Part shown: positions 8,680 through 30,277 of the stretch, piece after piece | Layout: every line of letters starts with the position of its first letter | Numbering within the stretch: the first letter of the stretch is position 1 | From: an uncultured Spirochaetia bacterium | GTDB taxonomy: Bacteria; Spirochaetota; JAHITG01; CAYQNP01 | Direction: 5' to 3' | DNA: 36,416 nt | Assembly (NCBI GenBank): GCA_964418785.1 | Contig: CAYQNP010000231.1 | Coordinates: forward strand, 1 to 36,416 | Notes under the pieces: model-generated | What the model was told of the DNA's origin: nothing | Databases searched by the model: none | What the model saw: the letters and a program-made list of their open reading frames with translations, nothing else | Position numbers and translations under genes: made by a program

Positions 8680-9600
8680 CTAAAAACTGTATTTTACTGT
8701 AGTCTGTAATGACGAACCAAGTTCACCTAATGAGATCCAGGCTGCATCAAAATAAAATTGTTTTATTTTCAACCCTAATCCTGCTGTCAACCCGTTAATC
8801 CAGTTTAAATAATTAACCCCTGTATCATAACTATAACCTGCTCTAATATAAACCATATTTTTATACACATACTCTATTCCTATATTAATAAAAGGTGTTT
8901 GATATAAAATATAATCAATACCACCTAAAATTTTCACATAGCGGATGTCGTTTATTTTTATTCTATACATAATTCCCGAATTTACTGAAACAGGCATTAT
9001 TTCATTATCTTCAACAAAAACACCTGCTGTTCCTATATTTTTCAGCACTAAACCTAAAATCAAATTTTTATCCTTCTGCAAAATAACTTTACTTCCTATA
9101 TCTGCTCCCACAGCGATTGTATTTTCATAAAATAATTTCTGATAATACATTTTAAAATTAATACCCAGCTCAATATTCATTTTTAATTTAAAACCGTACC
9201 CTACGGTGTATCCGGCAGAATACGAATTAAATATGTTTTCAATAACACCTTCTGTATTTCTGCTCTCCAATTCTCCCAGATCCACATAAGATAAACTCAC
9301 TCCTGCAGTTCCCTGTTTAAACCAATTTACCGGAATAGAATAACCTGCATAAAAGCAATTAATTTCTGAAATCCATTTATTAAAACTCAGCAAAACATTA
9401 TTTTTAACAGTTTCACTTAATCCGGCAGGATTCCAATAAAGACTGCTCAAATCATCAACTTCTGCAGCAACTGCGCCGGCAAGACTACCTCCTTTAGCAT
9501 CAGGGTTAATATTTAAAAAAAATGCCCCTGTTTCGCCGGCTCCAAAACCAGTATTAACTACCCCAAGCAAAAAAACAATAATTATTAATATCTTTCTCAT
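8680..9600 (-). CDS. PorV/PorQ-family outer-membrane beta-barrel (T9SS-associated)
   Basis: Signal peptide, then GAFFLNINPDAKGGSLAGAVAAEVDDLSSLYWNPAGLS, the characteristic N-terminal motif of PorV/PorQ-family barrels. Alternating beta-strand pattern and a C-terminal aromatic residue (KYSF). Confidence 0.65.
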   Translation of the reverse strand: MRKILIIIVFLLGVVNTGFGAGETGAFFLNINPDAKGGSLAGAVAAEVDDLSSLYWNPAGLSETVKNNVLLSFNKWISEINCFYAGYSIPVNWFKQGTAGVSLSYVDLGELESRNTEGVIENIFNSYSAGYTVGYGFKLKMNIELGINFKMYYQKLFYENTIAVGADIGSKVILQKDKNLILGLVLKNIGTAGVFVEDNEIMPVSVNSGIMYRIKINDIRYVKILGGIDYILYQTPFINIGIEYVYKNMVYIRAGYSYDTGVNYLNWINGLTAGLGLKIKQFYFDAAWISLGELGSSLQTTVKYSF

Positions 9601-9602
9601 TT

Positions 9603-12600
9603 CTATTTTAACACCCCGAGTTTCCCCGGTTTTTTACTTACAACTTTATTGTCTATACGCATTAAAATCAAATATAATCCGCTTGCCACTACTCGATTGT
9701 TTTTATTCCTCCCGTTCCATAATGCAGTATAATCTTTTCCTTTGACTGTTCCTACATAATTTCCGGTTATAGTATATATATCAAAAAACACATTTGCTGT
9801 AACTTTCGCATTATACTTTATTACTATATTATCCTGTTTATTAATATTAAACGGATTAGGATACACAATGAAACTGTTTTCCGGAATATCCGGTTTTTCA
9901 TTTTCATATACTATCCCGTCACTCTTAAATTTACTTATATTCCCTGCTCTATCCATTAACCAGATTTTAACTGTTTTATTTCCATATCCCTCGCTTAATA
10001 CATATTCTACATTAAAATTTTTCTTTATTCCTGTAAACTGCCAACCTGCTGAATTAACTTCCGGTGTTTCTGTGTTCTCACCTATATAATATGCTATTAC
10101 TTCTGTAACATTTGTAACACCTACTGCAATATTAACTGTTTTATCATAAGTTATCTGCTTATTATCTTCTATAATGATATATTCTGCAGAACCCGGTATT
10201 TTCGTATCAAGAATATTAATATTTGTAACTTTATTTAAAAGTCCTGTTTTATTAGATAAATAAGTTACTAAAATATTAGTACCTTCTTTTAAAAGTTTTA
10301 CTGTCATCTGAGTATCTGTGCTCCATCCGCTATCCCAACCAGTAATATCATTAGTTAAAACAAAAACACGATAATAATGCGAAAAACCGTTTATACTTAA
10401 CCATTTAACATTTGTATTATTACTGTACAATTCATTTAACCTATTATTAGTAATACCGTCTGTATCAATAACTTTAATAACAGCATACGGTGTACTTGTA
10501 TTTATAACAAAACTGTTTGTTTTACTCCATTCCCCCAAATTATTTAATTTATCTATTGCTCTAATTCTCCAATAATAAACATTTGTACTCATATTTATCA
10601 CTGTATAATTAGTACTGCATAAAACAACATTCGAGTAAATAACTGAAAAATCATTTAAAAGACCTATCTGCAACTGATAATTACTTATTCCGGAACCACT
10701 ATCAAAGGAAGACTTCCAGGTGAAATTTATTTTTTTATTTGTTGTCCATAAATTATTTTCAGGCATTAAAGGAACCGCTTTGTCAGGTCCTGTTTTATCA
10801 ATCCAGAAATAAGCAGACTCTGAAGTAAACCAGCTAACAGTTCCGATTTTATGCGTTAGTACTCTCCAATAATTTTTCCCTTCGTTTAAGTTTGCTGCCG
10901 GTATATATTCTGTAGCTGTTGTTACAAAACTCACTTCAACATCAGTAAATAAAGATGAATTCCCTATTTGAATCTTATTAGTATCTCCGGTTACTTCTTT
11001 ACTCCATACAAATAAAGGTTTTGAATTTGTAGTATACACTCCCAGCGGCTGATATAACTTTACAACCGGAACATTAGTATTTATTATGACCGGATAAATT
11101 GAACTAATATTTGTATTTCCTGCAAAATCCTCAACAAATACGGTCCAATGATTCGTACTGTTTTTCCCAAACTTAAAATTAAAATAGTTAACATTTAAGT
11201 TAGTAACAATTTCAAATCCGTCCGCAATATTATTATTTGTATCTATTTTAACCTTATAAAATTTAATACCGCTCACACTATCTGTACCATTCCATTGAAA
11301 ATCTACTGTAATATCCGGGGCAATTCTATTGCTTCCCGGGAATGTCAGGGAAATATCCGGCGGCACGGTATCTAATGTTATTTTCCGCACAGAACTATTA
11401 CTGCTTACATTTTCTGCATAATCTACACTTCTTACCCGCCAATACCAGATCCCGTCGCCTAAAACAGGGCTTACTGTCCAATTGGTTAAATTTATATTTG
11501 TGCTTCTTTTTATATTAATAAAATTATTATCATTACTGCTCAATTCAACAACATAATAAGCAATACCACTGCCGCCACTATCACTGCTTTTATTCCATTT
11601 AAGATTAATTGCATAATTATTGGTGATAAAATTGCTTACCGGATAAGTCAAAGAAACTATTTCAGGAGGAGTTGTGTCTATTCTAAATAAATTAGTCAGA
11701 CTCCATTTTCCCAAATTGCTTATACTATCTACTCCTCTTACCCGCCAATACCAGATCCCGTCAGATAAACTAAAAGGAATAATAAAATTTGTATTTGAAG
11801 TACTTATATTAAATTTAATATTATTAAAATTACTATTACTGGAAATTTCTACATTATAAAAACTTAACCCGCTTAATTTATCTATTCCGGTTTGCCACGA
11901 AAATAACGGCTGAGATATATTATAGATACTATTGTCTGCAGGTGTTTTTAAATGTATAATCTCAGGACCTGATCTGTCAATCCAGAACTTTCCAATACTT
12001 GAAGCATACCAATTTGTAGTACCCTCTTTTAAAGTATAAATTTTCCAAAAATTAGTTCCTTCTCTTAATGATATTGCCGGAATATAATTTGTATTAGTTG
12101 TACTATCTTCTAAAATACTATCTACAAACGAAAAATTTGAACTTATTATTATTTTATTTGTACTGCCGTTATCAGTACGGCTCCACTTAAAAATCGGTTT
12201 AAGATTGGTAATATAAACATTAACAGGATAATACAACTCAGATACAGGTAAATTTGTATCTATAATAATAGTCTGTATACTGCTCACATTACTGTTTCCG
12301 GCATTATCTTCTATTTTTACTTTCCAATGATTTGTGCTGCATCGTGCAAAAGTATAATAATATTCATTAGATGTTATATTATGAGTAAACTCAAAACCAT
12401 CAGAGATATTATTATTAGTATCAATCATTATAATATAATCATATATTCCGCTTCGATCGTCACTGCCATTCCAACTAAATTTTACTGTAAGTTCACCGGA
12501 ATAATTATTATCCGGCGGCAACAGAGCATTTATATTTGGGTTTACTGTATCAATTCCAACTTTCCATTCAACACTGACATCACTATAATTATTTGCTCTG

Positions 12601-13316
12601 TCTTTTGATATGACTTTCCACCACCATATTCCGTCACTCAACTGATTGGTTCTTACAAAATTTGTTTTATTTACAACACTCCTGGTATTTGTCATACCTA
12701 TATTGGTTATAAGGATTACTGTATAATTTGTTACACCGCTAAAATTATCGGAAGACCTGTTCCATTTAAAAACAGGGTTATGATTCTGCCAGGAATCATT
12801 TAAAGGCGATACTAAAATCGGCTGGGAAGGTTTTTCTATATCTACCATAAAGTTCCATGTACTGCTTTCAATTCCAATATTTCCTGCTCTATCAACACCT
12901 TTAACTTTCCAATACCACATTCCATTACTTAATGTAAACGCCGGAATCCATGTAGTACTATTATTAGTTATTACATATTCCGAGTTAAAATTATTCGAAC
13001 TTAACTCAAGTACATAAAAATCTATACCGCTTAAATTATCATTCCCACTCCACGAAAAAACAGGTGTATTATTATTTATATTATTATTACTTACAGGCAA
13101 ATTTAATAGGACCTTATTCGGGGCAGTATTGTCTACAATTAATTTCCGATATTCACTCCAATTTCCGTAATTACTCATATTATCAACTGCTCTTACTCTC
13201 CAATACCATATACCTTCACTAATGCCCGGAGATACTGTCCAATTTGTAGTTATTAAATTATAATTACTTCTTGCCACAGTTGAAAAAATTGAATCATTAC
13301 TACTAACTTCAATCAC
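9603..13316 (-). CDS. C-terminal part of a giant repeat-rich surface protein with a T9SS C-terminal sorting domain; no signal peptide of its own
   Basis: The track start is a GTG in the middle of a repeat module. Homology to the repeat (TGFDSGSGINHYVIEV) continues in frame up to the TGA at 13365-13367. There are ten modules of about 95-100 aa with the W-Y-W-[RK]-V-x-[AGS]-[VI]-D-x-x-x-N signature. It ends in YPNPFN...GLYLILMRI...GKLGVLK. Confidence 0.8.
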   Translation of the reverse strand: MIEVSSNDSIFSTVARSNYNLITTNWTVSPGISEGIWYWRVRAVDNMSNYGNWSEYRKLIVDNTAPNKVLLNLPVSNNNINNNTPVFSWSGNDNLSGIDFYVLELSSNNFNSEYVITNNSTTWIPAFTLSNGMWYWKVKGVDRAGNIGIESSTWNFMVDIEKPSQPILVSPLNDSWQNHNPVFKWNRSSDNFSGVTNYTVILITNIGMTNTRSVVNKTNFVRTNQLSDGIWWWKVISKDRANNYSDVSVEWKVGIDTVNPNINALLPPDNNYSGELTVKFSWNGSDDRSGIYDYIIMIDTNNNISDGFEFTHNITSNEYYYTFARCSTNHWKVKIEDNAGNSNVSSIQTIIIDTNLPVSELYYPVNVYITNLKPIFKWSRTDNGSTNKIIISSNFSFVDSILEDSTTNTNYIPAISLREGTNFWKIYTLKEGTTNWYASSIGKFWIDRSGPEIIHLKTPADNSIYNISQPLFSWQTGIDKLSGLSFYNVEISSNSNFNNIKFNISTSNTNFIIPFSLSDGIWYWRVRGVDSISNLGKWSLTNLFRIDTTPPEIVSLTYPVSNFITNNYAINLKWNKSSDSGGSGIAYYVVELSSNDNNFINIKRSTNINLTNWTVSPVLGDGIWYWRVRSVDYAENVSSNSSVRKITLDTVPPDISLTFPGSNRIAPDITVDFQWNGTDSVSGIKFYKVKIDTNNNIADGFEIVTNLNVNYFNFKFGKNSTNHWTVFVEDFAGNTNISSIYPVIINTNVPVVKLYQPLGVYTTNSKPLFVWSKEVTGDTNKIQIGNSSLFTDVEVSFVTTATEYIPAANLNEGKNYWRVLTHKIGTVSWFTSESAYFWIDKTGPDKAVPLMPENNLWTTNKKINFTWKSSFDSGSGISNYQLQIGLLNDFSVIYSNVVLCSTNYTVINMSTNVYYWRIRAIDKLNNLGEWSKTNSFVINTSTPYAVIKVIDTDGITNNRLNELYSNNTNVKWLSINGFSHYYRVFVLTNDITGWDSGWSTDTQMTVKLLKEGTNILVTYLSNKTGLLNKVTNINILDTKIPGSAEYIIIEDNKQITYDKTVNIAVGVTNVTEVIAYYIGENTETPEVNSAGWQFTGIKKNFNVEYVLSEGYGNKTVKIWLMDRAGNISKFKSDGIVYENEKPDIPENSFIVYPNPFNINKQDNIVIKYNAKVTANVFFDIYTITGNYVGTVKGKDYTALWNGRNKNNRVVASGLYLILMRIDNKVVSKKPGKLGVLK
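9606..9869 (-). other. T9SS type-A / FlgD-Ig-like C-terminal sorting domain of the giant protein
   Basis: IVYPNPFNINKQDNIVIKYN...FFDIYTITGNYV...WNGRNKNNRVVASGLYLILMRIDN...KLGVLK is the classic Por secretion tail pattern. It is paralogous to the tail at 35290-35565. Confidence 0.7.
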
Positions 13317-13364
13317 ATAATGATTTATTCCGCTGCCGGAATCGAATCCTGTTAAAAATACAAA
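10488..13364 (-). repeat. Tandem array of about ten beta-sandwich (FN3/Ig-like) coding modules with a higher-order duplication (approximate bounds)
   Basis: The signature recurs as WYWRVRAVD, WYWKVKGVD, WWWKVISKD, NHWKVKIED, NFWKIYTLK, WYWRVRGVD, WYWRVRSVD, NHWTVFVED, NYWRVLTHK and YYWRIRAID. The two-module block at about 11976-12551 is repeated at about 10794-11372. Confidence 0.75.
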
Positions 13365-14733: not shown

Positions 14734-15834
14734 TCATTTTTTAATTTTTAAAGTTTTTACTATAATTTCATACAATCTGTCAGCCAGCATAGATGCACCT
14801 TTAGGACTCAAATGAACCGGATCCGGACGATCTGTTCTTAAAAATTCTTCTGAAGTAATTTCATCACCTTTAATTAAATATATATTTTTATCTCCATTCT
14901 GTCGTCTTTGCTGAACAATATTTTCAACAACCTTTCTAAATTCAACTATGTTTATACCTGTTTTTTTAGAAACAGGTTTTCTTGTAAATAAAGGAGATAT
15001 ACAAAAGACAGGTGTTTTAGGATGGTTTTTTCTTATTGCATCAATTAACTTATTATATTCATTCTTAAATCTGTCTATACTTTTACCTGCTGAATGTAAA
15101 TCATTATATCCAATCAAAATGGTAATTAAATCAATCTTATTCCAATCTTTAAGCATTTCACCGGCAGGCACAGAGATTTTCCCGCCACCGACTGCAAGGT
15201 TATACAATTCATAATTAAGTTTTTCGGCAAGAAGAAACGGATAAGTTAAAAAACTTGATGACTTTTGACCTCTTCCATGTGTTATAGAATCTCCAAGCGC
15301 GACATAAACTTTTTTCTTTTTTCTTTTTATACTATACAGCTTTGCCTGATTATTTATTTCAATGCCAGAAAACTCAACATCAGCAAAACTCGGTAAATCA
15401 ATTTCGTATTCATTTACTTTCTTGCCACTATCAGGTTCTATAGTAAATTTAAAATCTTTTGCTTTTCTCCAGAAATTAAAAGATTTAAACCATTTTCCGT
15501 TTATTGATACTCCAAATTGAGCACCCTGATTAAGACTATTTTCAACAGGTTTAAAAAAGAGTGTTATTTTACTGCTGTCTGTTTTAAAAAATATTTTTAT
15601 ACCTGTTGTTCCGGTTGCTTTTTTAGGATTAAATCCGCTGACTTTAGGTCGCAATTTTAATACTTCATCAGAAAATCTGCGAAATATTATACCGTTATCT
15701 GTCTTTTTTATATATTTTACACCTTCGAAGTAAAATTTTTTATCTAAAGCAGAGATAAATTTTGCTTTTATAGATTTACTAAATCCTATCATAAAAACAG
15801 ATAACAGAATAAAATATATTATTTTATTTTTCAT
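14734..15834 (-). CDS. Secreted SGNH/GDSL-family hydrolase (probable carbohydrate esterase) with an N-terminal beta-sandwich domain
   Basis: Signal peptide MKNKIIYFILLSVFMIGFSKSIKA. SGNH blocks are present: VALGDSITHG (block I), AVGGG (II), GYNDL (III) and DPVHLSPKG (V, DxxH). Confidence 0.75.
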   Translation of the reverse strand: MKNKIIYFILLSVFMIGFSKSIKAKFISALDKKFYFEGVKYIKKTDNGIIFRRFSDEVLKLRPKVSGFNPKKATGTTGIKIFFKTDSSKITLFFKPVENSLNQGAQFGVSINGKWFKSFNFWRKAKDFKFTIEPDSGKKVNEYEIDLPSFADVEFSGIEINNQAKLYSIKRKKKKVYVALGDSITHGRGQKSSSFLTYPFLLAEKLNYELYNLAVGGGKISVPAGEMLKDWNKIDLITILIGYNDLHSAGKSIDRFKNEYNKLIDAIRKNHPKTPVFCISPLFTRKPVSKKTGINIVEFRKVVENIVQQRRQNGDKNIYLIKGDEITSEEFLRTDRPDPVHLSPKGASMLADRLYEIIVKTLKIKK

Positions 15835-23686: not shown

Positions 23687-23687
23687 C

Positions 23688-26126
23688 TTACTCTTTTCCC
23701 ATTAAAACCTCAACTTTGTGTACTTTTTTATCATTAAACAACGGTAAAATATTGCCTTCAATCTCTGTTCCGTCTACAACTATTTTTTTTATTCCTTTTG
23801 ATACTCTGTCAGGATTTTTTACAATTATATCATAAACTGAATTACGAAATTTTCGTTTAACAGTAAACCCGCTCCATGTATCAGGGATAGACGGGTCGAT
23901 CTTTAAACCTGAAAAATCAGGATTAACACCCAATATATACTTAATACCAGCCTGATACATCCATGATGATGTTCCGGAAAGCCAGCTGTTTCTTGCAAGA
24001 CCGAACTGCGGATGTTCATCACCTAAAATATTTTGCGGGTATACATACGGCTCACTTTCAAAATTATCAATATTATCATTCTTTTTTATAGGATTAATCT
24101 GCGAATAATATTCAAAAGCTCTATTTCCATTACCGAAAATTGCTTCTGCTATAACTGCCCATGTATTTGCATGTAGAAAAATGCCGCCGTTTTCTTTTGC
24201 TCCCGGAGGATATGTGGTAACACCGCCTTTTTCAGGATCAAATTTCTTATATCCCGGTGTACTTAATTTTATGCCATTTTTTGTATTAAGATATTTATAT
24301 ACCGAATCGAGAGCTTTTTTTGCTCTCTCTGTTGTTGCAAATCCGGAAAGCACTGTCCATGTTTGTGCATTAGTGTAAATCTTTCCTTCTTTGTTAATCT
24401 TTGAGCCAATAGGATTACCGTCTTTATCAAGATATCTAATATACCAATTTCCATCCCACCCGTATTGGTTTACAATTTCTCTCATTTCATTATAATATCG
24501 CTTATACTTTCGAGAGAGATTATTTTCTTTTAAAAACTCTGTCAATCCTATCATCTCTTTTAAAGCAACACCAAATAAATTTGCAATAAATAAAGATTCT
24601 GCACCACTTGCAAGATTTACAGTATCATTCCAATCAGCAAAACCAAGAAGAGGCAGACCGTGCTTTCCTCTATTTTTATATGTAAATTCTATACCCTTTT
24701 TTAAATGTTCTAAAACTGTAGCTTTATATATAGATTTTCCGGTTTTATCTTTATCATAAAATGGAATTTCTTTATTTAAGAACTTAATATCTCCTGTTTC
24801 TTTTAAATAAGTTGCAACTGCAAGAATAATCCACAAATGGTCATCACCATAATATTTTGGGGCATCTTCTTTTTCTCTTGAATCTCCTTCATTTGCAATC
24901 ATTGTAATTGGATTAAACTGATGCATTGCTGAACCGTTATATTTTTGAATATGAAGTAATTTTTCTATAAGACTTTTTGCCTGTTCCGGAACAAGAGAAA
25001 TAGCTCCCATTACATCCTGAGAACTATCTCTAAAACCTATTCCACGCGCGCCGAATCCTAATTGATATAACGATAAATATCGAGACCAGTTTAAGGTAAT
25101 ATAACTTTGATACGGATTAAATACATTTAACAGTACATTCATTTCTTTATCAGGAGTATTTACACTTGTAACAGATAAAGTATTATCCCAAAATTCTTTT
25201 ATTTTATTAAATTCATCGTCTATATTTTTCTCTATTCTGTACTTTTGGATATTTTTTAATGCTTTTTTTATATTGGGATAATTTGACAACTGAGTAATAA
25301 TTCTTTTTGTTTCACCGGGCTTTAAGCTTCCAAGATGGTGCATAAGTGCCGCTATATTATCACCTCTCCTTGCTTCATAATTTGACAGCTCTTCATTTAA
25401 AAGTCCTAATGGTTCTCTCCAACTGCCATAGCCGTTATCTCCTAAGAATATCCGTCTGTCAGTTTCAAAAGAGGACACCGGATAATTAGAAGTAAAATAA
25501 TTCTCTTCTAATCCTTTATTCATAAATGCAAATTGTGCCAGGACTATTAACTCGTTTTCTTTATGACGAACTTCACTTTGCATTGTCTGCGGTACCCAAT
25601 CGGCATTTGTCAACTGTTTTAATGCATCAGGATGTGTATATTCTACTACAGGAATAAAATCTATCTCAATAGATTTTTTACTGATATTTGTTATTCTATA
25701 ATCTCTTATTAAATGATTACTTCCCATAGGCACAAAAATAACTACTTCTGTTCTAATACCGTAAAATTCAGATATTATTTTTGTATATAATAATCCTATA
25801 TGTGCCTCATATTTTTTATATCTGTCAATTGTAGGAACAAAATAAGGTGAAAATATTTTATATTTATTTTTACCATTCTTTATTCTGATATATGCTGTTT
25901 CCCCTTTAAAATCAGAGTCAGGAAGTTGCGGAATATATTTAGTAATTCTATTTAAAGCAGGATCACCTTTACATATAAGTGATCCGCCTGTAGTATCAAC
26001 AAATCCGCCAAATGAAATATTTCCCACATAATTTATCCATTTAACAGGTGTTTTTGGATTCGTCAGTACATATTCTCTGTTTTTCTCGTCAAAATAGCCA
26101 TACTTATTTTTTTTATTTTTTATCAT
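23688..26126 (-). CDS. GH94-like disaccharide phosphorylase (cellobiose/chitobiose phosphorylase family)
   Basis: Start moved to the ATG at 26126 (GGAG RBS), because the track start at 26186 overlaps the upstream sulfatase. YGYFDEKNREYVLTNPKTPVKWINYVGN is the typical GH94 N-terminus. The catalytic-Asp motif GFADWNDT and GGIFLHANTWAVIAEA are present. About 812 aa, as for cellobiose phosphorylases. Confidence 0.8.
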   Translation of the reverse strand: MIKNKKNKYGYFDEKNREYVLTNPKTPVKWINYVGNISFGGFVDTTGGSLICKGDPALNRITKYIPQLPDSDFKGETAYIRIKNGKNKYKIFSPYFVPTIDRYKKYEAHIGLLYTKIISEFYGIRTEVVIFVPMGSNHLIRDYRITNISKKSIEIDFIPVVEYTHPDALKQLTNADWVPQTMQSEVRHKENELIVLAQFAFMNKGLEENYFTSNYPVSSFETDRRIFLGDNGYGSWREPLGLLNEELSNYEARRGDNIAALMHHLGSLKPGETKRIITQLSNYPNIKKALKNIQKYRIEKNIDDEFNKIKEFWDNTLSVTSVNTPDKEMNVLLNVFNPYQSYITLNWSRYLSLYQLGFGARGIGFRDSSQDVMGAISLVPEQAKSLIEKLLHIQKYNGSAMHQFNPITMIANEGDSREKEDAPKYYGDDHLWIILAVATYLKETGDIKFLNKEIPFYDKDKTGKSIYKATVLEHLKKGIEFTYKNRGKHGLPLLGFADWNDTVNLASGAESLFIANLFGVALKEMIGLTEFLKENNLSRKYKRYYNEMREIVNQYGWDGNWYIRYLDKDGNPIGSKINKEGKIYTNAQTWTVLSGFATTERAKKALDSVYKYLNTKNGIKLSTPGYKKFDPEKGGVTTYPPGAKENGGIFLHANTWAVIAEAIFGNGNRAFEYYSQINPIKKNDNIDNFESEPYVYPQNILGDEHPQFGLARNSWLSGTSSWMYQAGIKYILGVNPDFSGLKIDPSIPDTWSGFTVKRKFRNSVYDIIVKNPDRVSKGIKKIVVDGTEIEGNILPLFNDKKVHKVEVLMGKE

Positions 26127-26136: not shown

Positions 26137-27585
26137 TTAAAACTTTCTAACAAAATTTTCAGGTTTATTTCTTGCATCTCTATCAAACGAAATTGTATCT
26201 GCTGTTTTTAAATACCAGTTTAAAAGTTCAGACTCTAAACTTTTTATTAAATCACTATCTTTATATTGCTCGTATACATTATTTATTTCCCGGGGGTCAT
26301 TATCTAAAAGATATAACTCGTTCTCGCCACTGGTTCGTTTAACATATTTGTACTTTAAGTTTCGTATCATAACAGTTCTGCACACGCTTTCAGGATGTTC
26401 CTGCTGAACTATAGCCTTTGGATAATAAATACTTTCTTTATTTAATAAACCGTCAGAAAAACGGGGATTTCCTTCAAAACATTCATCATCCTGATTAATA
26501 TCATAACCGCCTTCACAAAAAACATATCGTTCAGGATCAGCAGGTTCTCCATAAAGCTGTTTTACTAAAGACTTTGAAAAATGATGGTGTGTAGCCTCAA
26601 CTCCTGCAAGTTCCATTACTGTAGCAAAAAAATCGAATAATTCAACAGGTTCTTTTACAGATGTTCCTTTTTTATTGCCGGGTACAGATATAATAAAAGG
26701 TACCCTGGTTAAAACATCTTCCATTCCATTAGGCCATTTTTCGACAAGTTTATAATCACCGGCATAATCACCATGGTCAGAAAAAAATATAATTGCAGTA
26801 TCATCACTTAATCCGGCGCGCTCAATACTGTCTATAACCATTCCCAATAAATAATCAACATACGATATAGATGCTAAATAAACAGACTGTATTTTTTTAA
26901 ATAAATCATCATTCTGACTATTTAATTCTCTATATTCTTTAATATACGAATGAAACAGCGGAGCATTATTTTTCTCAGGTCTTAAATAATCAATATTAAA
27001 TTTATCATATAAATTATAAAACTCTTTCGGTGCAGTATAAGGAGGATGCGGTTTACCTATTGGTAAGAATAAAAAAAACGGTTTTTTATGCTCAGCCTCT
27101 ATAAATTCACAACCGCGTTTTACATATAAATAATCTATACTGTCTTCAATTCTGTCAAAAGGTTCAGCAAGAAAAGTGTAAAAATCTTTAAGACTTTTTT
27201 CTCCTCTTTTGTAATAATTCTTTCCACCGGGATTTGAAAAATTTTCAGTATAAGTAACACTTTCTTCAAAACTTTCTTCTGCGAGCAGATCATTTTTTCC
27301 GTACCAGGCTACATCATATCCGCTTTTCTTTAAATATTTTAATAAATTAGGTTCGTATGATTTTAATAAATTCCATAAACTTCTATGTCCGGAATTATGA
27401 ACATATAATCCTGTCATAAAAGAACATCTTGAAGGTGTACACACAGGATTTTGGACAAAACAGTTTTCAAATTTCACACCCTCTTCAGCAAGTCTGTCAA
27501 TATTAGGTGTTTTAACAAAAGGATGACCATAACAGCTCACACTTTCGGCCCGTAATTCGTCCGGATTAAAAACTACAAAATTCAT
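26137..27585 (-). CDS. Cytoplasmic Cys-type sulfatase
   Basis: MNFVVFNPDELRAESVS start with no signal peptide. FGly motif C-T-P-S-R at nt 27427-27441 (checked: TGT ACA CCT TCA AGA). SDHGD motif. Confidence 0.85.
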   Translation of the reverse strand: MNFVVFNPDELRAESVSCYGHPFVKTPNIDRLAEEGVKFENCFVQNPVCTPSRCSFMTGLYVHNSGHRSLWNLLKSYEPNLLKYLKKSGYDVAWYGKNDLLAEESFEESVTYTENFSNPGGKNYYKRGEKSLKDFYTFLAEPFDRIEDSIDYLYVKRGCEFIEAEHKKPFFLFLPIGKPHPPYTAPKEFYNLYDKFNIDYLRPEKNNAPLFHSYIKEYRELNSQNDDLFKKIQSVYLASISYVDYLLGMVIDSIERAGLSDDTAIIFFSDHGDYAGDYKLVEKWPNGMEDVLTRVPFIISVPGNKKGTSVKEPVELFDFFATVMELAGVEATHHHFSKSLVKQLYGEPADPERYVFCEGGYDINQDDECFEGNPRFSDGLLNKESIYYPKAIVQQEHPESVCRTVMIRNLKYKYVKRTSGENELYLLDNDPREINNVYEQYKDSDLIKSLESELLNWYLKTADTISFDRDARNKPENFVRKF

Positions 27586-27595: not shown

Positions 27596-28429
27596 TTATT
27601 CTTTTAATGCACCTTCTCCAAGACCTCTTATAAAAGCTCTCATACCGAAAAAGAAAAGAATAACCAACGGTAATGCAGCAATAGTATATCCTGCCATTAA
27701 TTCGCCCCATTGTTTGGTATATTCACCTTCCATATGTAACAATGCAACAGAAATAAGATGTTTATGACTATCTCTAATCATTATTAAAGAAGCTACAAAT
27801 CTATTCCACTGATTTATTATTCGCAAAACAAGCAGAGTTCCTATAATAGGCATACTTAACGGTATTACAACATAACGGATCTGCTGGAGTGGTGAACATC
27901 CGTCAATAGAAGCAGCATCGAACAGATCTTTTGGGATCTCTTCTATAAAATTTTTTAAAACAAAGATAGTAAAAGCCTGCCCGCTTGATATACCGAGAAG
28001 TATTAATGCCCAATGAGAATTATACAGATGTATAGAAGTAATAAGTTTAAAAGTCGGGACCATATTAGCCACACCGGGATACATCATTAAAATCAAAAAA
28101 ATATAAAAAAGGAAATTAGCACCAGGGACATGCTTATACCTGGCAAAGAAAAAAGCACCCATTACTGAAAACATTAACATCAAAACAACAGTTGTCAGCG
28201 AAACAAATATAGAATTAAAAATATTTGATTTAAGTTTATCCCATGCTTTAGAATAATTTTCAAAATGATAAGGTGCTTCAGGAAGCCAGGGATTCCTTGC
28301 AAACTGTTGATTATCCTTTAAAGATATATTTAACATTAAATAGATAGGCATTAATGCAGCAATAAGAATCATCCATAATATAATATGTTTTATTAATTCT
28401 TTTACTTTTCTTTTTCTTTTTTCATTCAT
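27596..28429 (-). CDS. ABC sugar transporter permease (MalG/CUT1 type)
   Basis: Six-TM pattern with the EAA loop DAASIDGCSPLQQIRYVVIPLSMP. Confidence 0.85.
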   Translation of the reverse strand: MNEKRKRKVKELIKHIILWMILIAALMPIYLMLNISLKDNQQFARNPWLPEAPYHFENYSKAWDKLKSNIFNSIFVSLTTVVLMLMFSVMGAFFFARYKHVPGANFLFYIFLILMMYPGVANMVPTFKLITSIHLYNSHWALILLGISSGQAFTIFVLKNFIEEIPKDLFDAASIDGCSPLQQIRYVVIPLSMPIIGTLLVLRIINQWNRFVASLIMIRDSHKHLISVALLHMEGEYTKQWGELMAGYTIAALPLVILFFFGMRAFIRGLGEGALKE

Positions 28430-28446: not shown

Positions 28447-29346
28447 TTATTTATCCACACGAACATATCTATTATTTATCCAGGTAAGAAGTAAAGTTAT
28501 AAGAAATATTAAGAATCCAATGGCACAGCCATAGCCGAAATAACCCCTGCTAAAAGCTTCTCTAAAAATATACAAACCCGGAACAGTGGCTACTCCATTA
28601 GGACCACCGCTTTCTCCTAAAAAAAGATATACAAATTCCCAGCCTCTAATCGTATTTATTATCATTAAAACTAATACTATTCTGATTTGAGTCATTATTA
28701 AAGGCAATTCCATATACCAGAATACCTGAAAAGCATTAGCACCTTCCATTTTTGCTGATTCATAAATAGAACTTGGAATATTCTGTAATCCCGCCAGATA
28801 TACAAGAACACTAAAGGCGCCTATCCACGGGAAACCGCGTAAAATTAAACTCGGAATAACCAATGATTCATTTGATAACCATTGAATAACTTTATCCGGA
28901 TCAAGCCATCCTATTGCGTGAAGAATGGTATTTAAAATCCCCACATTAGGCTCATAAAAATATTTCCATAAAAGTATATTTACCATCTGTGGAATAATCA
29001 TAGGAATAATAAAAAGTATCCTGTAAGCATATCTCCACCCGTCGTGAATAATATGATGTATAATAACAGCAGCTACAATTGCCGGAATCATCTTTACTAA
29101 ATTTGCAAGAATAAAAATAAATACAACACCGAAAGACTTCCAGAGTCTTACATCATGAAACATTTTTACAATATTCGAAAGTCCAACATATTCTTCGATT
29201 GTATCTCCATCCCATCTGTAAAAAATATGAATAAACCCGTTTATTATAGGATAATAATTAAATATAAGGACTAATAATAAAGGTACAGCTACAAGAGAAT
29301 AAATAACTATCATTTGCTTAACATTTTTTTTCATTACTAACTGCAT
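28447..29346 (-). CDS. ABC sugar transporter permease (MalF/CUT1 type)
   Basis: Start set to the ATG at 29346 (GAGGTG 6 nt upstream), because the track start at 29355 is a GTG inside the RBS. EAA loop ESAKMEGANAFQVFWYMELPL. Confidence 0.85.
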   Translation of the reverse strand: MQLVMKKNVKQMIVIYSLVAVPLLLVLIFNYYPIINGFIHIFYRWDGDTIEEYVGLSNIVKMFHDVRLWKSFGVVFIFILANLVKMIPAIVAAVIIHHIIHDGWRYAYRILFIIPMIIPQMVNILLWKYFYEPNVGILNTILHAIGWLDPDKVIQWLSNESLVIPSLILRGFPWIGAFSVLVYLAGLQNIPSSIYESAKMEGANAFQVFWYMELPLIMTQIRIVLVLMIINTIRGWEFVYLFLGESGGPNGVATVPGLYIFREAFSRGYFGYGCAIGFLIFLITLLLTWINNRYVRVDK

Positions 29347-29365
29347 AATAAACACCTCTTATTAT

Positions 29366-30181
29366 TTATTTTAAATTTTTCAAATATCTTTTTACAATAG
29401 AAGCCCTGTTTGAATAAGGAAACTTTTTCAAAAATTCATTATAATACTTTCTTGCAATATCATTATTTTTTAATTTAACCTCACTGATACGACCTAATCT
29501 GAATAAAACAGTTTCTCTTTTTACATCAGAAGTTATTCCAATTTTGTAAGCGCTTTCTAAATGAGAGAAAGATTTTTTATAGTCTTGCTTTAAGTTTACA
29601 TACATTCTCTCAATATAAAGATGAATTGTAATGGTATTCTCCGGGTCGCCTTTATACTTTCGTAAAAAATCTTCTAATAATTTAAATCCTTTATTTTGAA
29701 CTTTCTTATCTTTACTGAAAAAATAAGGCTCAGCCATATAAGTTACAGCAATACAGCTATAAGCAGAAGAAGGAACTTTTTTTATAATACTCTTATATGT
29801 ATCTGTAATTTCATTATCACTAAAATCTTTTAATTTATTCTGTTTATGGGCTATTTGCAGAACACGAGCATAAGATAAAGCAGCTTCAGACCAGATATCA
29901 GAATCTACTTCAGGATTATTAATTATTTTTTTTAATCCTTTAAGCCCAAATGGGATATCTTTTTTATCTTTATCATAAATAAAACACAGGTAATAAATAA
30001 GTTCTGCTTCAGGTTTATTTAAGTATTTTTTAGTTATTTTACGAGCAGTTTTAAATCTCATATCCTGATACGCTTTTAAAGCAGATTCAATATCATTTTC
30101 ATAATCGGCCTTTCCGGAGACCGGGAAAATAAACATTGCACTGAGAAATATTGTTATAAAACTTTTTATAAACTTTTCCAT
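29366..30181 (-). CDS. Secreted helical-repeat (TPR-like) protein of unknown function; first gene of the long operon
   Basis: Start set to the ATG at 30181 (MEKFIKSFITIFLSAMFIFPVSG signal peptide, GAGGTG RBS). The longer track ORF would read through the operator/palindrome. The C-terminal ARKYYNEFLKKFPYSNRASIVKRYLKNL is TPR-like. Confidence 0.5.
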   Translation of the reverse strand: MEKFIKSFITIFLSAMFIFPVSGKADYENDIESALKAYQDMRFKTARKITKKYLNKPEAELIYYLCFIYDKDKKDIPFGLKGLKKIINNPEVDSDIWSEAALSYARVLQIAHKQNKLKDFSDNEITDTYKSIIKKVPSSAYSCIAVTYMAEPYFFSKDKKVQNKGFKLLEDFLRKYKGDPENTITIHLYIERMYVNLKQDYKKSFSHLESAYKIGITSDVKRETVLFRLGRISEVKLKNNDIARKYYNEFLKKFPYSNRASIVKRYLKNLK

Positions 30182-30198: not shown

Positions 30199-30212
30199 TG
30201 CAACCGCTTCCA
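30199..30212. promoter_or_regulatory. Candidate LacI-family operator (site 3): TGCAACCGCTTCCA, embedded in a 12-bp-arm palindrome
   Basis: It differs from site 1 at a single position. It lies between the promoter (-10 at 30250-30255) and the RBS/ATG of the first operon gene. Confidence 0.55.
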
Positions 30213-30249
30213 ATAGGTTGCAAAAAAAATATTTTTACTCCTACCTTTA

Positions 30250-30277
30250 ATTATACTCCTTTTAATTAAAAAGTCAA
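30250..30277 (-). promoter_or_regulatory. Near-consensus sigma70 promoter of the long catabolic operon (TTGACT-N16-TATAAT)
   Basis: The minus strand reads AACTTGACT TTTTAATTAAAAGGAG TATAAT, preceded by an A/T tract. The -35 is at 30272-30277 and the -10 at 30250-30255. Confidence 0.7.

What the first reader, a model, noticed from the sequence alone, without database searches (positions are those of the whole stretch)
8680..30277. 21.6 kb LacI-gated operon coupling ABC import to cytoplasmic desulfation and phosphorolysis of a sulfated glycan
From the TTGACT-N16-TATAAT promoter (30250-30277) to the PorV stop (8680) there are 14 consecutive minus-strand ORFs. The gaps are only 1-23 nt and I could not find a terminator. 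The operon encodes a TPR-like protein, two CUT1 permeases, a sulfatase, GH94, GH3, an anchored SBP, three more sulfatases, an SGNH esterase, the giant T9SS cargo and PorV. The four operon sulfatases, plus 6025-7485 in the next unit, start directly with the catalytic metal-binding strand (MKKPNIILIMTDQQ, MGKRPNVVCFISDD, MRVLYFDIDTL, MNFVVFNPDEL, MKVIMVMFDSL). Because the gaps are short, there is no room for an upstream signal peptide. In the well-studied Bacteroides-type PUL logic, sulfatases are exported and act before uptake through SusC/D. Here the arrangement implies import of still-sulfated oligosaccharides by an ABC system, followed by intracellular desulfation, GH3 hydrolysis and GH94 phosphorolysis. 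The substrate cannot be named from sequence. The GH10-like, GH94 and GH3 enzymes hint at a beta-linked xylan, glucan or GlcNAc-type backbone.
Basis: partly seen in the sequence, partly recalled or inferred. Interest (0 to 1): 0.75.

Follow-up and report, generated by a model that had tools for sequence, protein, structure and literature searches.

The report
Import-then-desulfate sugar operon with cytoplasmic sulfatases
This is a LacI-controlled gene cluster from an uncultured bacterium that seems to import sulfated sugar fragments through an ABC transporter and remove the sulfate inside the cell; this route is rarely studied but has a published precedent and recurs in other bacteria.

Summary
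From a sigma-70-like promoter (30277-30250) to the PorV-family stop (8680) there is one unbroken run of minus-strand genes. Gaps are -4 to 19 nt and no intergenic terminator-like site was found. Pfam confirms a TPR-like protein, two CUT1 permeases, GH94, GH3, an anchored SBP, four sulfatases, an SGNH esterase and a large surface protein.

Five sulfatases (SulfA-E) cannot carry a signal peptide: an in-frame stop lies 0-11 codons upstream of each, and each has its own RBS. A sixth sulfatase in the cluster has a Tat signal.

New evidence:
- A 13-nt LacI-type palindrome occurs four times (0 expected), only in the four largest intergenic gaps.
- The SulfC family is signal-less in about 117 of 120 homologues.
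- SulfC relatives sit beside ABC importers in other bacteria, once with GH94 and once with GH3.

Corrections:
- The "14 ORFs" are 13 genes, because an in-frame TGA splits one of them.
- The locus extends beyond the stated limits on both sides.
- The GH3 is closest to a GH3 phosphorylase.
- The T9SS assignment holds only at family level.

ABC import of sulfated disaccharides with a cytoplasmic sulfatase is published for Streptobacillus moniliformis. This is therefore a new variant of a known kind. The substrate remains unknown.

The parts
30250..30277 (-). Sigma-70-like promoter P1 (TTGACT-N16-TATAAT)
   Evidence: It matches 11 of 12 positions and is the best minus-strand hit in 20000-33200. 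It lies in the 72-nt gap upstream of the TPR gene.
30199..30211 (-). LacI-type operator O3 (GGAAGCGGTTGCA), between P1 and the TPR ATG
   Evidence: It is one of four exact matches to GGAAGCGNTTSCA; 0 were expected in 100 shuffles. The sequence context is shown.
29366..30181 (-). Secreted TPR-like accessory protein (start taken as ATG 30181)
   Evidence: TPR_6 is a weak hit. It has an N-terminal hydrophobic segment. TPR-like proteins of 270-283 aa precede SBP homologues in L085-L087.
28447..29355 (-). ABC permease 1 (CUT1 type)
   Evidence: BPD_transp_1, E 1.7e-09. It has 6 TM-like segments.
27596..28429 (-). ABC permease 2 (CUT1 type)
   Evidence: BPD_transp_1, E 1.4e-17.
26137..27585 (-). SulfA, signal-less S1 sulfatase (motif CTPSR)
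   Evidence: PF00884 3e-52, with profile positions 2-301 aligned to residues 2-329. An in-frame stop lies 6 codons upstream. Best PDB hit is 6hhm, 7e-40. A 46% orthologue sits next to a SulfC orthologue in L004.
23688..26126 (-). GH94 phosphorylase, cellobiose-phosphorylase-like, cytoplasmic
   Evidence: Glyco_hydro_94 2.3e-137 plus the supersandwich domain 5e-50. Full-length alignment to cellobiose phosphorylases gives about 1e-160, against 1e-127 for chitobiose phosphorylase. It has no hydrophobic N-terminus.
22106..23686 (-). GH3 of the NagZ/BglP clade, cytoplasmic (hydrolase or phosphorylase)
   Evidence: GH3 N-terminal domain 1.9e-57. The best PDB hit is 5vqd, beta-glucoside phosphorylase BglX, 1e-50, followed by NagZ/YbbD. 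The motif KHFPGEGFDIFDQH is visible in the translation. A 45% orthologue is present in L004.
20424..22109 (-). Solute-binding protein with an N-terminal TM anchor and a C-terminal helical hairpin
   Evidence: SBP_bac_1 5e-15. The AF2 model has pLDDT 88, and its Foldseek neighbours are generic CUT1 oligosaccharide SBPs. No solved structure is close by sequence.
18908..20404 (-). SulfB, signal-less S1 sulfatase (motif CLPSR)
   Evidence: PF00884 1.2e-43, from residue 4. An in-frame stop lies 11 codons upstream with no start codon between. A 51% orthologue is adjacent to a SulfC orthologue in L090.
17430..18893 (-). SulfC, signal-less S1 sulfatase (motif CISSR), S1_46-like
   Evidence: PF00884 8e-52. 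A stop codon lies immediately upstream. Best PDB hit is 7oz8, which is BT1918, S1_46, 3S-GlcNAc sulfatase, at 2e-61. The family is signal-less in about 117 of 120 homologues.
15853..17415 (-). SulfD, signal-less S1 sulfatase (motif CTASR)
   Evidence: PF00884 1.9e-36. Best PDB hit is 9fvt, OpSulf1 of a sulfated-mannan pathway, at 2e-72. Its closest relatives (43-55% identity) also lack an N-terminal extension, whereas most of the family has one.
14734..15834 (-). Exported SGNH/GDSL esterase
   Evidence: Lipase_GDSL_2 2e-18. It has an N-terminal hydrophobic segment.
9603..14732 (-). One large Ig-repeat surface protein with a signal peptide and a T9SS-type-A-like C-terminal domain, interrupted by an in-frame TGA at 13365-13367
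   Evidence: The two ORFs share a frame and a repeat unit spans the TGA. Big_13 3.6e-13. The C-terminal 100 aa are 35% identical (E 1e-21) to the C-terminus of 35287-36252, which passes TIGR04183.
8680..9600 (-). PorV/PorQ-family outer-membrane beta-barrel
   Evidence: NF033709 scores 147.5 bits against a cutoff of 90. It is below the PorV cutoff (79 vs 250) and the PorQ cutoff (115.5 vs 220) for the equivalog models.
8614..8666 (-). Promoter P2 (TTGACA-N16-TATAAT, 8666-8639) and operator O2 (GGAAGCGATTCCA, 8626-8614)
   Evidence: The promoter matches 12 of 12 positions. The operator is an exact match. The sequence is shown.
7557..8600 (-). LacI-family repressor
   Evidence: LacI HTH 6.9e-18 and Peripla_BP_3 5e-31.
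7502..7514 (-). Operator O1 (GGAAGCGCTTGCA) upstream of SulfE
   Evidence: It is an exact match and lies in the 71-nt gap 7486-7556.
6025..7485 (-). SulfE, signal-less S1 sulfatase (motif CMPAR)
   Evidence: PF00884 2.4e-31, from residue 3. An in-frame stop lies 4 codons upstream.
5246..6010 (-). Orphan 254-aa cytoplasmic protein, translationally coupled to SulfF
   Evidence: It has no Pfam or NCBIfam hit. The single-sequence AF2 model has pLDDT 35.6.
3867..5249 (-). SulfF, exported S1 sulfatase with a twin-arginine signal (TRREFL), S1_9-like
   Evidence: PF00884 starts at residue 42. Best PDB hits are 3b5q and 5g2t (2-O GAG sulfatase), about 7e-51, aligned from residue 36-38.
1058..3850 (-). 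Exported or anchored clan GH-A-like glycosidase (start probably ATG 3850)
   Evidence: GH42 (1.9e-06) and Cellulase (6e-05) are weak hits. It has an N-terminal hydrophobic segment.
248..1000 (-). TatC
   Evidence: PF00902 5e-53.
32953..32965 (-). Operator O4 (GGAAGCGTTTCCA) upstream of the beta-helix gene
   Evidence: It is an exact match. The sequence is shown.
30296..32917 (-). Exported right-handed beta-helix (NosD/CASH) protein, a possible glycan lyase, epimerase or hydrolase
   Evidence: Beta_helix 5.7e-25 and NosD 2e-20. Similarity to AlgG C5-epimerase is weak, 7e-07.
33037..33972 (-). TauE/SafE (TSUP) anion transporter, a candidate sulfate or sulfite efflux route
   Evidence: PF01925 3.2e-53. 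It has 8 TM-like segments.
33998..35278 (-). Exported GH10
   Evidence: Glyco_hydro_10 9.6e-35.
35287..36252 (-). C-terminal part of a protein with a T9SS type A sorting domain (the ORF stays open to the window edge)
   Evidence: TIGR04183 scores 27.2 against a cutoff of 23. No in-frame stop occurs upstream before the window edge.

Best explanation
This is a LacI-family-controlled glycan utilisation locus of an uncultured diderm bacterium, probably related to Spirochaetota.

Proposed mechanism:

1. Exported enzymes and a large Ig-repeat surface protein bind and fragment a sulfated, probably acetylated, beta-linked glycan outside the inner membrane. The exported enzymes are the beta-helix protein, GH10, a clan GH-A glycosidase, the SGNH esterase and one Tat-exported sulfatase.
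2. A CUT1-type ABC importer takes up oligosaccharides that still carry sulfate. It consists of a membrane-anchored SBP, two permeases and a secreted TPR-like accessory protein. Its ATPase is encoded elsewhere.
3. In the cytoplasm, five different formylglycine sulfatases (SulfA-E) remove sulfate esters at different positions.
4. A NagZ/BglP-type GH3 and a cellobiose-phosphorylase-like GH94 then cleave the desulfated beta-linked oligo- or disaccharide. At least the GH94 step is phosphorolytic.
5. A TauE/SafE-family transporter in the same cluster may export the released sulfate.
6. The local LacI repressor binds a 14-bp palindrome (TGGAAGCGnTTsCA) at four sites and releases them when an imported sugar is present.

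Shown by sequence analysis (in silico only): gene content, the lack of signal peptides, the promoters, the four operator copies and the recurrence in other genomes.

Inferred: the substrate, the direction of transport, the order of the steps, sulfate efflux and repression by this particular LacI.
For: 1. The five sulfatases have no room for a signal peptide. In-frame stops lie 0-11 codons upstream, each has its own RBS, and the Pfam domain starts at residue 2-5. They lack any hydrophobic N-terminus, while eight neighbouring proteins have one.
2. There is an internal control. A sixth sulfatase in the same locus carries a clear Tat signal, and tatC lies three genes downstream on the same strand.
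3. All six sulfatases keep C-x-[PAS]-x-R...TG, the N-terminal metal-binding Asp and the DH[GN] motif.
4. Lack of a signal peptide is a property of the clades.
   - In 117 of the 120 best SulfC homologues the metal-binding motif starts at residue 2-36, median 13.
   - The closest SulfD relatives are signal-less, although about two thirds of that family carry N-terminal extensions.
5. The same design recurs elsewhere.
   - L091: SBP, two permeases, SulfC (54%), a SulfA-like sulfatase, GH94 and three more signal-less sulfatases.
   - L004, a Spirochaetaceae MAG with GC 31%: a sulfatase, GH3 (45%), two permeases, SBP, SulfC (53%) and SulfA (46%).
   - L090: an Opp-type ABC system next to SulfB (51%) and SulfC (56%).
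   - Metabacillus indicus: LacI, SBP, two permeases, GH130, GH88, SulfC (53%) and PL8.
   - Paenibacillus: permeases, SulfC and SBP.
6. GH94 and GH3 have no signal peptides. GH94 aligns end to end with cellobiose phosphorylases.
7. GGAAGCGNTTSCA occurs four times exactly where 0 are expected, only in the four largest intergenic gaps. Two copies lie just downstream of the two best sigma-70-like promoters, including the promoter of the LacI gene itself.
8. A TauE/SafE transporter lies in the cluster.
9. There is a published precedent for ABC import of sulfated disaccharides with a cytoplasmic sulfatase (PMC5430744).
Against: - No experiment of any kind supports the model, and no transcript data exist.
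- No FGly-generating enzyme (anSME or FGE) and no ABC ATPase is encoded in the window.
- The SBP/TPR/permease module occurs in three other genomes with GH2 genes, with GH65/GH116/GH28 genes or with no GH genes nearby, and no sulfatase within 10 kb. The transporter family is therefore not tied to sulfate.
- The SBP model resembles generic neutral-oligosaccharide binders.
- Only 4 of the 80 GTDB loci with SulfC relatives have detectable CUT1 permeases within 10 kb.
- No natural sulfated substrate for a GH94 enzyme is known (own knowledge). A literature search combining GH94, sulfatases, ABC transporter and sulfated found no paper.
- SulfC has Ser at the +2 position of the FGly motif.
- TauE is linked to sulfatases only in this window.
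Confidence: 0.6

Rival explanations
1. The signal-less sulfatases are exported after all and act in the periplasm, as in the Bacteroides model. Export could work, for example, by 'hitchhiking' through the Tat pathway as folded complexes with the Tat-signal sulfatase SulfF, or by another non-classical route. The ABC system would then import already desulfated sugars.
For: SulfF has a twin-arginine signal, and tatC lies three genes downstream of it on the same strand. Tat can carry signal-less partner subunits (own knowledge). The SBP family occurs elsewhere with no sulfatases, and its model resembles neutral-sugar binders.
Against: Five different sulfatases from different subfamilies would all have to pair with one carrier. 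The SulfC family is signal-less in nearly all of 120 homologues, including Firmicutes such as Metabacillus and Paenibacillus, where it lies inside ABC-importer loci with cytoplasmic GH88 and GH130. The closest TatC relative has no sulfatase cluster beside it.
Confidence: 0.1
2. The sulfatase-family proteins do not act on the imported glycan. They would hydrolyse small sulfate or phosphonate esters, for sulfur scavenging or as promiscuous alkaline-phosphatase-superfamily enzymes. The transporter, GH94 and GH3 would simply use ordinary beta-glucosides such as cellobiose or chitobiose.
For: SulfA also hits phosphonate monoester hydrolases and choline sulfatases at about 1e-29. None of the six reaches any NCBIfam equivalog cutoff. 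GH94 looks like a plain cellobiose phosphorylase. No sulfated GH94 substrate is known.
Against: Ten genes from TPR to SulfD, including four of the sulfatases, are packed with gaps of 19 nt or less behind one promoter and operator. The pairing of sulfatases with GH94 or GH3 and an ABC importer recurs in unrelated genomes. The closest solved relatives of SulfC, SulfD and SulfF are carbohydrate sulfatases. The exported enzymes in the locus point to a complex decorated glycan.
Confidence: 0.15
3. The 21.6-kb stretch is not one functional unit. It would be a mosaic of neighbouring accessory genes, partly decaying, that merely share a strand.
For: The large surface-protein gene carries an in-frame TGA. 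The cluster is absent next to tatC in the closest relative. The gene order differs from related modules: TPR, SBP and the two permeases are contiguous elsewhere but split here. Many weak internal promoter-like sites exist, at about the chance rate.
Against: Gaps are -4 to 19 nt, with start and stop codons overlapping or nearly touching. No intergenic terminator-like site was found. The four operator copies bracket the units precisely. All other ORFs are intact, and two further assemblies are 99.97-100% identical.
Confidence: 0.1

Closest known systems
Streptobacillus moniliformis GAG cluster (Smon0120-0123 ABC importer, sulfatase Smon0126, UGL Smon0127; Oiki et al. 2017, PMC5430744)
   Same: It is a diderm bacterium. 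An SBP-dependent ABC transporter imports disaccharides that still carry sulfate, and the sulfatase and glycosidase are predicted to be cytoplasmic.
   Different: That system has one sulfatase, a GH88 hydrolase and lyase-derived unsaturated GAG disaccharides. Here there are five cytoplasmic sulfatases plus one Tat-exported one, GH94 and GH3 instead of GH88, and no PL8 or PL12. The SBP has no detectable sequence relative in the PDB. A Spirochaetota affiliation is probable.
Bacteroides PULs for sulfated glycans (chondroitin sulfate, heparan sulfate, mucin; SusC/D with periplasmic S1 sulfatases)
   Same: Both co-localise S1 sulfatases, glycosidases, a surface glycan-binding protein and a regulator. 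The closest solved relatives of SulfC and SulfF are the B. thetaiotaomicron enzymes BT1918 (S1_46) and BT1596 (S1_9).
   Different: In Bacteroides, desulfation is periplasmic and unsulfated monomers enter the cytoplasm (PMC9067506). Here no SusC/SusD pair is present, uptake is by an ABC system, and five of the six sulfatases lack any export signal.
Gram-positive-type ABC 'gpPUL' loci carrying SulfC-family sulfatases (Metabacillus indicus L092, Paenibacillus L093, metagenomic L091)
   Same: They combine a LacI or two-component regulator, a CUT1 ABC importer, signal-less sulfatases of the same family (53-54% identity) and cytoplasmic glycosidases or phosphorylases. L091 even contains GH94.
   Different: The taxa and GC content differ. 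The Metabacillus locus has PL8 and GH88, which is GAG-like logic. None of these loci has the PorV-family protein with a CTD surface protein, the Tat sulfatase or TauE. As far as I could find, none has been characterised experimentally.
Cellobiose/chitobiose phosphorylase operons (GH94 with a CUT1 ABC importer, for example in Clostridia and Vibrio)
   Same: They share ABC import of a beta-1,4-linked disaccharide followed by cytoplasmic GH94 phosphorolysis. The window GH94 aligns over its full length at about 1e-160 to cellobiose phosphorylases.
   Different: Known GH94 operons contain no sulfatases (own knowledge).

Membership tests
S1 formylglycine-dependent sulfatases | Sulfatase domain (PF00884) scoring above the gathering threshold | tested here: met
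   All six score 109-178 bits against a cutoff of 25.
S1 formylglycine-dependent sulfatases | FGly consensus C/S-x-P/A-x-R followed by ...TG | tested here: met
   The motifs are CTPSR, CLPSR, CTASR, CMPAR and CSPAR. SulfC has CISSR, with Ser at +2. Its family shows CxAxR 86 times, CxSxR 28 times and CxPxR never.
S1 formylglycine-dependent sulfatases | An FGly-generating enzyme (anSME or FGE) is available | not testable with these tools
   None is encoded in the 36-kb window. The rest of the genome is unknown.
S1 formylglycine-dependent sulfatases | Assignment to a SulfAtlas subfamily | not testable with these tools
   Only the nearest solved structures are available: SulfC to 7oz8 (S1_46), SulfD to 9fvt, SulfF to 5g2t (S1_9), SulfE to 5g2v (partial), and SulfA and SulfB to 6hhm.
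GH94 glycoside phosphorylases | GH94 catalytic domain plus N-terminal supersandwich domain, with full-length similarity to characterised phosphorylases | tested here: met
   PF17167 2.3e-137 and PF06165 5e-50. Residues 27-832 align to cellobiose phosphorylase residues 2-814.
GH94 glycoside phosphorylases | Catalytic Asp and phosphate-site residues; substrate subsites (cellobiose versus chitobiose) | not tested
   No residue-level comparison was made. Scores favour cellobiose phosphorylase (540 bits) over chitobiose phosphorylase (430 bits).
GH3, NagZ/BglP clade | GH3 N-terminal domain and the KH(F/I)PGxG-x4-D-x-H acid/base dyad motif | tested here: met
   PF00933 1.9e-57. KHFPGEGFDIFDQH is in the translation. 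The motif definition comes from my own knowledge. Best structures are 5vqd (phosphorylase) and NagZ/YbbD.
CUT1 ABC sugar importer | Two BPD_transp_1 permeases plus an SBP_bac_1 binding protein | tested here: met
   the SBP fold is confirmed.
CUT1 ABC sugar importer | A cognate ATPase (MsiK/MalK type) in the locus | tested here: not met
   No ABC_tran domain occurs in any window ORF. Shared ATPases encoded elsewhere are common in CUT1 systems (own knowledge).
LacI/GalR regulon | Repressor with a LacI HTH and a periplasmic-binding-protein-like sensor domain | tested here: met
   PF00356 6.9e-18 and PF13377 5e-31.
LacI/GalR regulon | Palindromic operator of the TGnAAnCGnTTnCA type near promoters | tested here: met
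   There are four exact copies of GGAAGCGNTTSCA where 0 are expected, all intergenic, and two lie directly downstream of the best promoters. Binding by this particular protein was not tested.
Type IX secretion (cargo plus PorV) | Type A C-terminal sorting domain (TIGR04183) | tested here: met
   35287-36252 scores 27.2 against a cutoff of 23. The large protein's C-terminus is homologous to it, E 1e-21, but did not itself reach the model at E 0.001 or better.
Type IX secretion (cargo plus PorV) | PorV or PorQ at equivalog level | tested here: not met
   PorV scores 79 against 250 and PorQ 115.5 against 220. Only the broad PorV/PorQ family model is passed, 147.5 against 90.
Type IX secretion (cargo plus PorV) | Core machinery (PorK/L/M/N, Sov, PorU) in the genome | not testable with these tools
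   It is not in the window. The closest named TatC relatives are Spirochaetales MAGs, a phylum not known for T9SS (own knowledge).
Bacteroidota-type PUL | An adjacent SusC/SusD pair | tested here: not met
   No TonB-dependent receptor or SusD domain occurs in any ORF.
Streptobacillus-type GAG import cluster | A polysaccharide lyase plus GH88 unsaturated glucuronyl hydrolase, with an ABC importer and a cytoplasmic sulfatase | tested here: not met
   The ABC importer and cytoplasmic sulfatases are present. No GH88 or PL8/PL12 domain is in the window. This locus works like that system but is not a member of it.

The most novel reading that the evidence does not exclude
A widespread, uncharacterised cytoplasmic pathway may exist for a natural sulfated beta-linked (cellobiose-, chitobiose- or xylo-type) oligosaccharide. 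The still-sulfated fragment would be imported by an ABC system and stripped by a battery of position-specific cytoplasmic S1 sulfatases. Only then would GH94 and GH3 phosphorylases cleave it, with the sulfate exported by a TSUP transporter. This would imply an abundant sulfated beta-glycan in nature that has not been recognised as a bacterial substrate. It would also mean that S1 sulfatase clades, including the CxA/SxR SulfC clade, are matured and active in the cytoplasm of diderm bacteria.
Probability: 0.3. Interest if true: 0.7.

Novelty: new variant of a known kind. Interest (0 to 1): 0.5.

Why it matters
Models of how bacteria consume sulfated glycans (algal polysaccharides, mucins, glycosaminoglycans) rest mainly on Bacteroidota, where sulfate is removed in the periplasm before uptake. 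This locus, and the related loci found here in Spirochaetaceae, Bacillales and unassigned metagenomic contigs, suggest a different layout. A still-sulfated fragment is imported through an ABC system and desulfated in the cytoplasm by several sulfatases before phosphorolysis.

If this is confirmed, it would change three things:

- Sulfatases without signal peptides should not be dismissed as mis-annotations in metagenome surveys.
- Sulfate would be released inside the cell, which matters for sulfur budgets and for cross-feeding of sulfate reducers.
- It would provide candidate enzymes, a transporter and a regulator-operator pair for finding the unknown sulfated beta-linked substrate.

Tried and rejected
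- Close relatives of the whole operon. The best SulfC relative is 58% identical, the best SBP relative 46% and the best TatC relative 69%. The GTDB species scan reached at most 55%. The lineage is therefore barely sampled and true synteny conservation could not be assessed. Only two near-identical contigs exist.
- SBP specificity. There is no sequence relative in the PDB. The AF2 model is good (pLDDT 88), but its Foldseek neighbours are generic CUT1 binders for maltose, chitin, xylo- and cello-oligosaccharides and sulfoquinovose. No substrate could be inferred, and there is no special likeness to known acidic-sugar binders.
- The orphan 254-aa protein. It has no Pfam or NCBIfam hit, and the single-sequence AF2 model has pLDDT 35.6, which is unusable. 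I had wondered whether it could be a maturation factor; nothing supports this.
- NCBIfam naming of the sulfatases. None reaches an equivalog cutoff.
- Rfam. No riboswitch or other RNA family was found in the window.
- The beta-helix protein. It shows only weak similarity to AlgG C5-epimerase.
- Organism names for the closest TatC clusters. None are on record.
- Literature. No paper links GH94 with sulfatases and an ABC transporter. The Bifidobacterium breve glycosulfatase paper (PMC5086555) is not held, so it is cited only from memory.
- TGA recoding as an explanation for the split gene. I rejected this because TGA ends six ORFs as called here.
- The TTG starts at 30223 and 26186.

Full report
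**What is in the window.** The window has about 31% GC. Every ORF in the gene run, 24 in all, lies on the minus strand. It is metagenomic. Two other public assemblies (ENA ERZ27262694 and Logan SRR8542060) carry the same DNA at 99.97-100% identity.

**Gene content of the stretch named in the finding.**

| Gene | Coordinates |
|---|---|
| TPR-like protein | 29366-30181 |
| BPD_transp_1 permease 1 | 28447-29355 |
| BPD_transp_1 permease 2 | 27596-28429 |
| Sulfatase SulfA | 26137-27585 |
| GH94 | 23688-26126 |
| GH3 | 22106-23686 |
| SBP_bac_1 binding protein | 20424-22109 |
| Sulfatase SulfB | 18908-20404 |
| Sulfatase SulfC | 17430-18893 |
| Sulfatase SulfD | 15853-17415 |
| SGNH esterase | 14734-15834 |
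| Large Ig-repeat protein | 9603-14732 |
| PorV/PorQ-family barrel | 8680-9600 |

**Operon layout.** Intergenic distances are -4 to 19 nt. No terminator-like site falls in an intergenic gap. The promoter TTGACT-N16-TATAAT is at 30277-30250.

- The GH94 gene starts at ATG 26126, because PDB alignments begin at residue 27 of the TTG-extended ORF.
- The TPR gene starts at ATG 30181.
- ORFs 13365-14732 and 9603-13316 are one gene cut by an in-frame TGA inside a repeat unit. The "14 ORFs" are 13 genes.

**The central claim: sulfatases without export signals.** Four lines of evidence agree.

1. The Pfam Sulfatase profile begins at residue 2-5 in SulfA to SulfD and in SulfE (6025-7485).
2. The nearest upstream in-frame stop is 6, 11, 0, 8 and 4 codons away with no start codon between, and each ATG follows a Shine-Dalgarno-like sequence.
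3. None of the five has a hydrophobic N-terminal segment. The TPR protein, SBP, SGNH esterase, surface protein, PorV-family protein, GH10, GH-A glycosidase and beta-helix protein all have one.
4. The locus has its own positive control. A sixth sulfatase, SulfF (3867-5249), has a twin-arginine signal (TRREFL). Its domain starts at residue 42, and tatC lies three genes downstream on the same strand.

All six proteins keep the formylglycine motif C-x-[P/A/S]-x-R...TG, the N-terminal metal-binding Asp and the DH[G/N] motif. They look like active S1 sulfatases. GH94 and GH3 also lack signals.

**Is the missing signal a quirk of this contig?** It is not.

- In 117 of the 120 best SulfC homologues, the metal-binding motif starts at residue 2-36 (median 13). 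These come from Phycisphaerae, Spirochaetia, Latescibacterota, Poribacteria, Gemmatimonadota, Chloroflexota, Metabacillus and Paenibacillus. Their FGly motif is CxAxR or CxSxR and never CxPxR.
- For SulfD, about two thirds of 150 family representatives carry a 15-70-aa N-terminal extension. The closest relatives (43-55% identity) are signal-less like SulfD.

Cytoplasmic location is therefore a heritable property of these clades.

**Regulation.** I found evidence for it.

The LacI gene (7557-8600) has its own perfect promoter, TTGACA-N16-TATAAT, at 8666-8639. The palindrome GGAAGCGNTTSCA, core TGGAAGCGnTTsCA of the LacI/GalR type, occurs exactly four times where none is expected in 100 shuffles. 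All four copies lie in the four largest intergenic gaps:

- between promoter P1 and the TPR start (30199-30211)
- just downstream of the LacI promoter (8614-8626)
- upstream of SulfE (7502-7514)
- upstream of the beta-helix gene (32953-32965)

This supports one regulon that is wider than the finding's coordinates. On one side it includes the beta-helix protein. On the other it includes SulfE, an orphan 254-aa protein, the Tat-exported SulfF and a clan GH-A glycosidase. GH10 and a TauE/SafE transporter lie just upstream on the same strand.

**Related loci elsewhere.** SulfC relatives sit beside ABC importers repeatedly.

| Locus | Arrangement |
|---|---|
| L091 (metagenomic, GC 49%) | SBP, two permeases, SulfC (54%), a SulfA-like sulfatase, GH94 (35%), three more signal-less sulfatases |
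| L004 (Spirochaetaceae MAG, GC 31%) | a sulfatase, GH3 (45%), two permeases, SBP, SulfC (53%), SulfA (46%) |
| L090 | Opp-type ABC system next to SulfB (51%) and SulfC (56%) |
| Metabacillus indicus | LacI, SBP, two permeases, GH130, GH88, SulfC (53%), PL8 |
| Paenibacillus | similar ABC-embedded SulfC |

The link is not universal.

- Only 4 of 80 GTDB loci with SulfC relatives have detectable CUT1 permeases within 10 kb.
- In Limihaloglobus the orthologue lies beside a chondroitinase-like lyase with no transporter.
- The window's own SBP family (38 members, at most 46% identity) forms a conserved module of TPR-like protein, SBP and two permeases. In Victivallales- and Planctomycetota-type contigs this module has no sulfatases nearby.

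The inference that the cargo is sulfated therefore rests on the co-operonic sulfatases and not on the transporter.

**Enzyme identities.**

- GH94 aligns end to end with cellobiose phosphorylases at about 1e-160. Chitobiose phosphorylase scores 1e-127.
- The best solved relative of the GH3 is a GH3 beta-glucoside phosphorylase (5vqd, 1e-50), followed by NagZ/YbbD. The GH3 carries the KHFPGxG...DxH dyad motif. It may be a phosphorylase and not a hydrolase.
- SulfC is nearest to BT1918, an S1_46 3S-GlcNAc sulfatase.
- SulfD is nearest to OpSulf1 of a sulfated-mannan pathway.
- SulfF is nearest to the S1_9 2-O-sulfatase.

The substrate cannot be named. The SBP model (pLDDT 88) resembles generic CUT1 oligosaccharide binders.

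**Most likely mechanism (confidence about 0.6).**

1. Exported enzymes and a surface Ig-repeat protein fragment a decorated sulfated beta-linked glycan.
2. The ABC system imports fragments that still carry sulfate.
3. Five cytoplasmic sulfatases strip them.
4. GH3 and GH94 cleave the product, at least partly by phosphorolysis.
5. TauE may export the sulfate.
6. LacI represses the whole set until an inducer enters.

The rivals are non-classical or Tat-hitchhiker export of the sulfatases (0.1), sulfatases acting on non-glycan esters (0.15), and a non-functional mosaic (0.1).

**Comparison with what is known.** In Bacteroides, desulfation is periplasmic and unsulfated monomers enter the cell (PMC9067506). 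Surveys usually assume that sulfatases are exported (PMC9324843).

Import-then-desulfate is, however, already published. In Streptobacillus moniliformis an SBP-dependent ABC transporter takes up sulfated unsaturated chondroitin disaccharides, and the sulfatase and UGL are predicted to be cytoplasmic (PMC5430744). From memory, Bifidobacterium breve imports GlcNAc-6-sulfate and desulfates it intracellularly; that paper is not held.

What is new here:

- a battery of five cytoplasmic sulfatases
- their coupling to GH94 and GH3, where the literature search found no report
- a probable Spirochaetota host with a PorV-family protein and a CTD surface protein

I rate this a new variant of a known kind, with interest 0.5.

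**Caveats.**

- All evidence is computational.
- No FGly maturase and no ABC ATPase is encoded in the window.
- The taxon assignment rests on TatC named hits at 58-59% identity and on similarity to one Spirochaetaceae MAG.
- The T9SS label is met only at family level (PorV 79 vs 250 bits, PorQ 115.5 vs 220).
- The TGA in the surface-protein gene lies 57-82 nt from the point where two other assemblies break. It may be an assembly artefact.

Noticed in passing
window 13365-13367 (ORFs 13365-14732 and 9603-13316): A single in-frame TGA splits one repeat protein of about 1,709 aa. The repeat unit (FDSGSGINHYVIEVSS...) runs across the stop. TGA ends six ORFs as called here. Two independent assemblies (L001, L002) both end at window 13424 and 13449, just upstream of the TGA. 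The stop may be a real nonsense mutation or an assembly error in a repeat.
   Followed up: partly
window 33037-33972: A TauE/SafE (TSUP) anion transporter gene lies on the same strand, just upstream of the operator-controlled units. It is a candidate exporter for sulfate released in the cytoplasm. No TauE homologue was found in the other loci examined.
   Followed up: partly
window 3867-5249 and 248-1000: The only sulfatase with an export signal uses a twin-arginine motif (TRREFL), and tatC lies three genes downstream on the same strand. In the closest TatC relative (67% identity, L088), tatC has no sulfatase cluster beside it.
   Followed up: yes
L085, L086, L087 (and window 29366-30181 plus 20424-22109): A secreted TPR-like protein of 270-283 aa directly precedes the SBP and two permeases in the three homologue contigs examined (L085-L087); named members of the family are Victivallales and Planctomycetota MAGs. 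This suggests a conserved fourth component of this ABC family. In the window the SBP has been separated from it by SulfA, GH94 and GH3.
   Followed up: partly
window 20424-22109: The SBP has an N-terminal transmembrane helix (residues about 20-47) instead of a lipobox. It also has a C-terminal helical hairpin of about 90 aa (472-559) that extends beyond the roughly 380-410-residue CUT1 SBP structures it matched in the fold search (AF2 pLDDT 88).
   Followed up: partly
window 17430-18893 and homologues P0001-P0120: The SulfC family never has Pro at +2 of the formylglycine motif (CxAxR 86, CxSxR 28, SxAxR 3, CxTxR 2, CxVxR 1). This raises the question of which maturase serves it in the cytoplasm.
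   Followed up: partly
window 8680-9600, 9603-9905, 35287-35589: A PorV/PorQ-family barrel and two proteins with homologous T9SS-type-A-like C-terminal domains occur in a genome whose TatC is closest to Spirochaetales MAGs. T9SS is regarded as specific to the FCB group (own knowledge). Either the taxon guess is wrong or a T9SS-like sorting module exists outside that group.
   Followed up: partly
window 5246-6010: An orphan 254-aa protein with no family hit overlaps the SulfF start by 4 nt (ATGA) and sits between two sulfatase genes. Structure prediction failed (pLDDT 35.6).
   Followed up: partly
L083 (Limihaloglobus sulfuriphilus) and L092 (Metabacillus indicus): SulfC orthologues (58% and 53% identity) lie next to PL8-type lyases, and next to GH88 in Metabacillus. 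The same sulfatase clade therefore also serves uronic-acid (GAG-like) glycan loci.
   Followed up: partly
window 35287-36416: The ORF ending at 35287 stays open to the window edge, so the protein with the sorting domain is only partly within the window. The L001 contig appears to end close to the same place, judging from its length.
   Followed up: no
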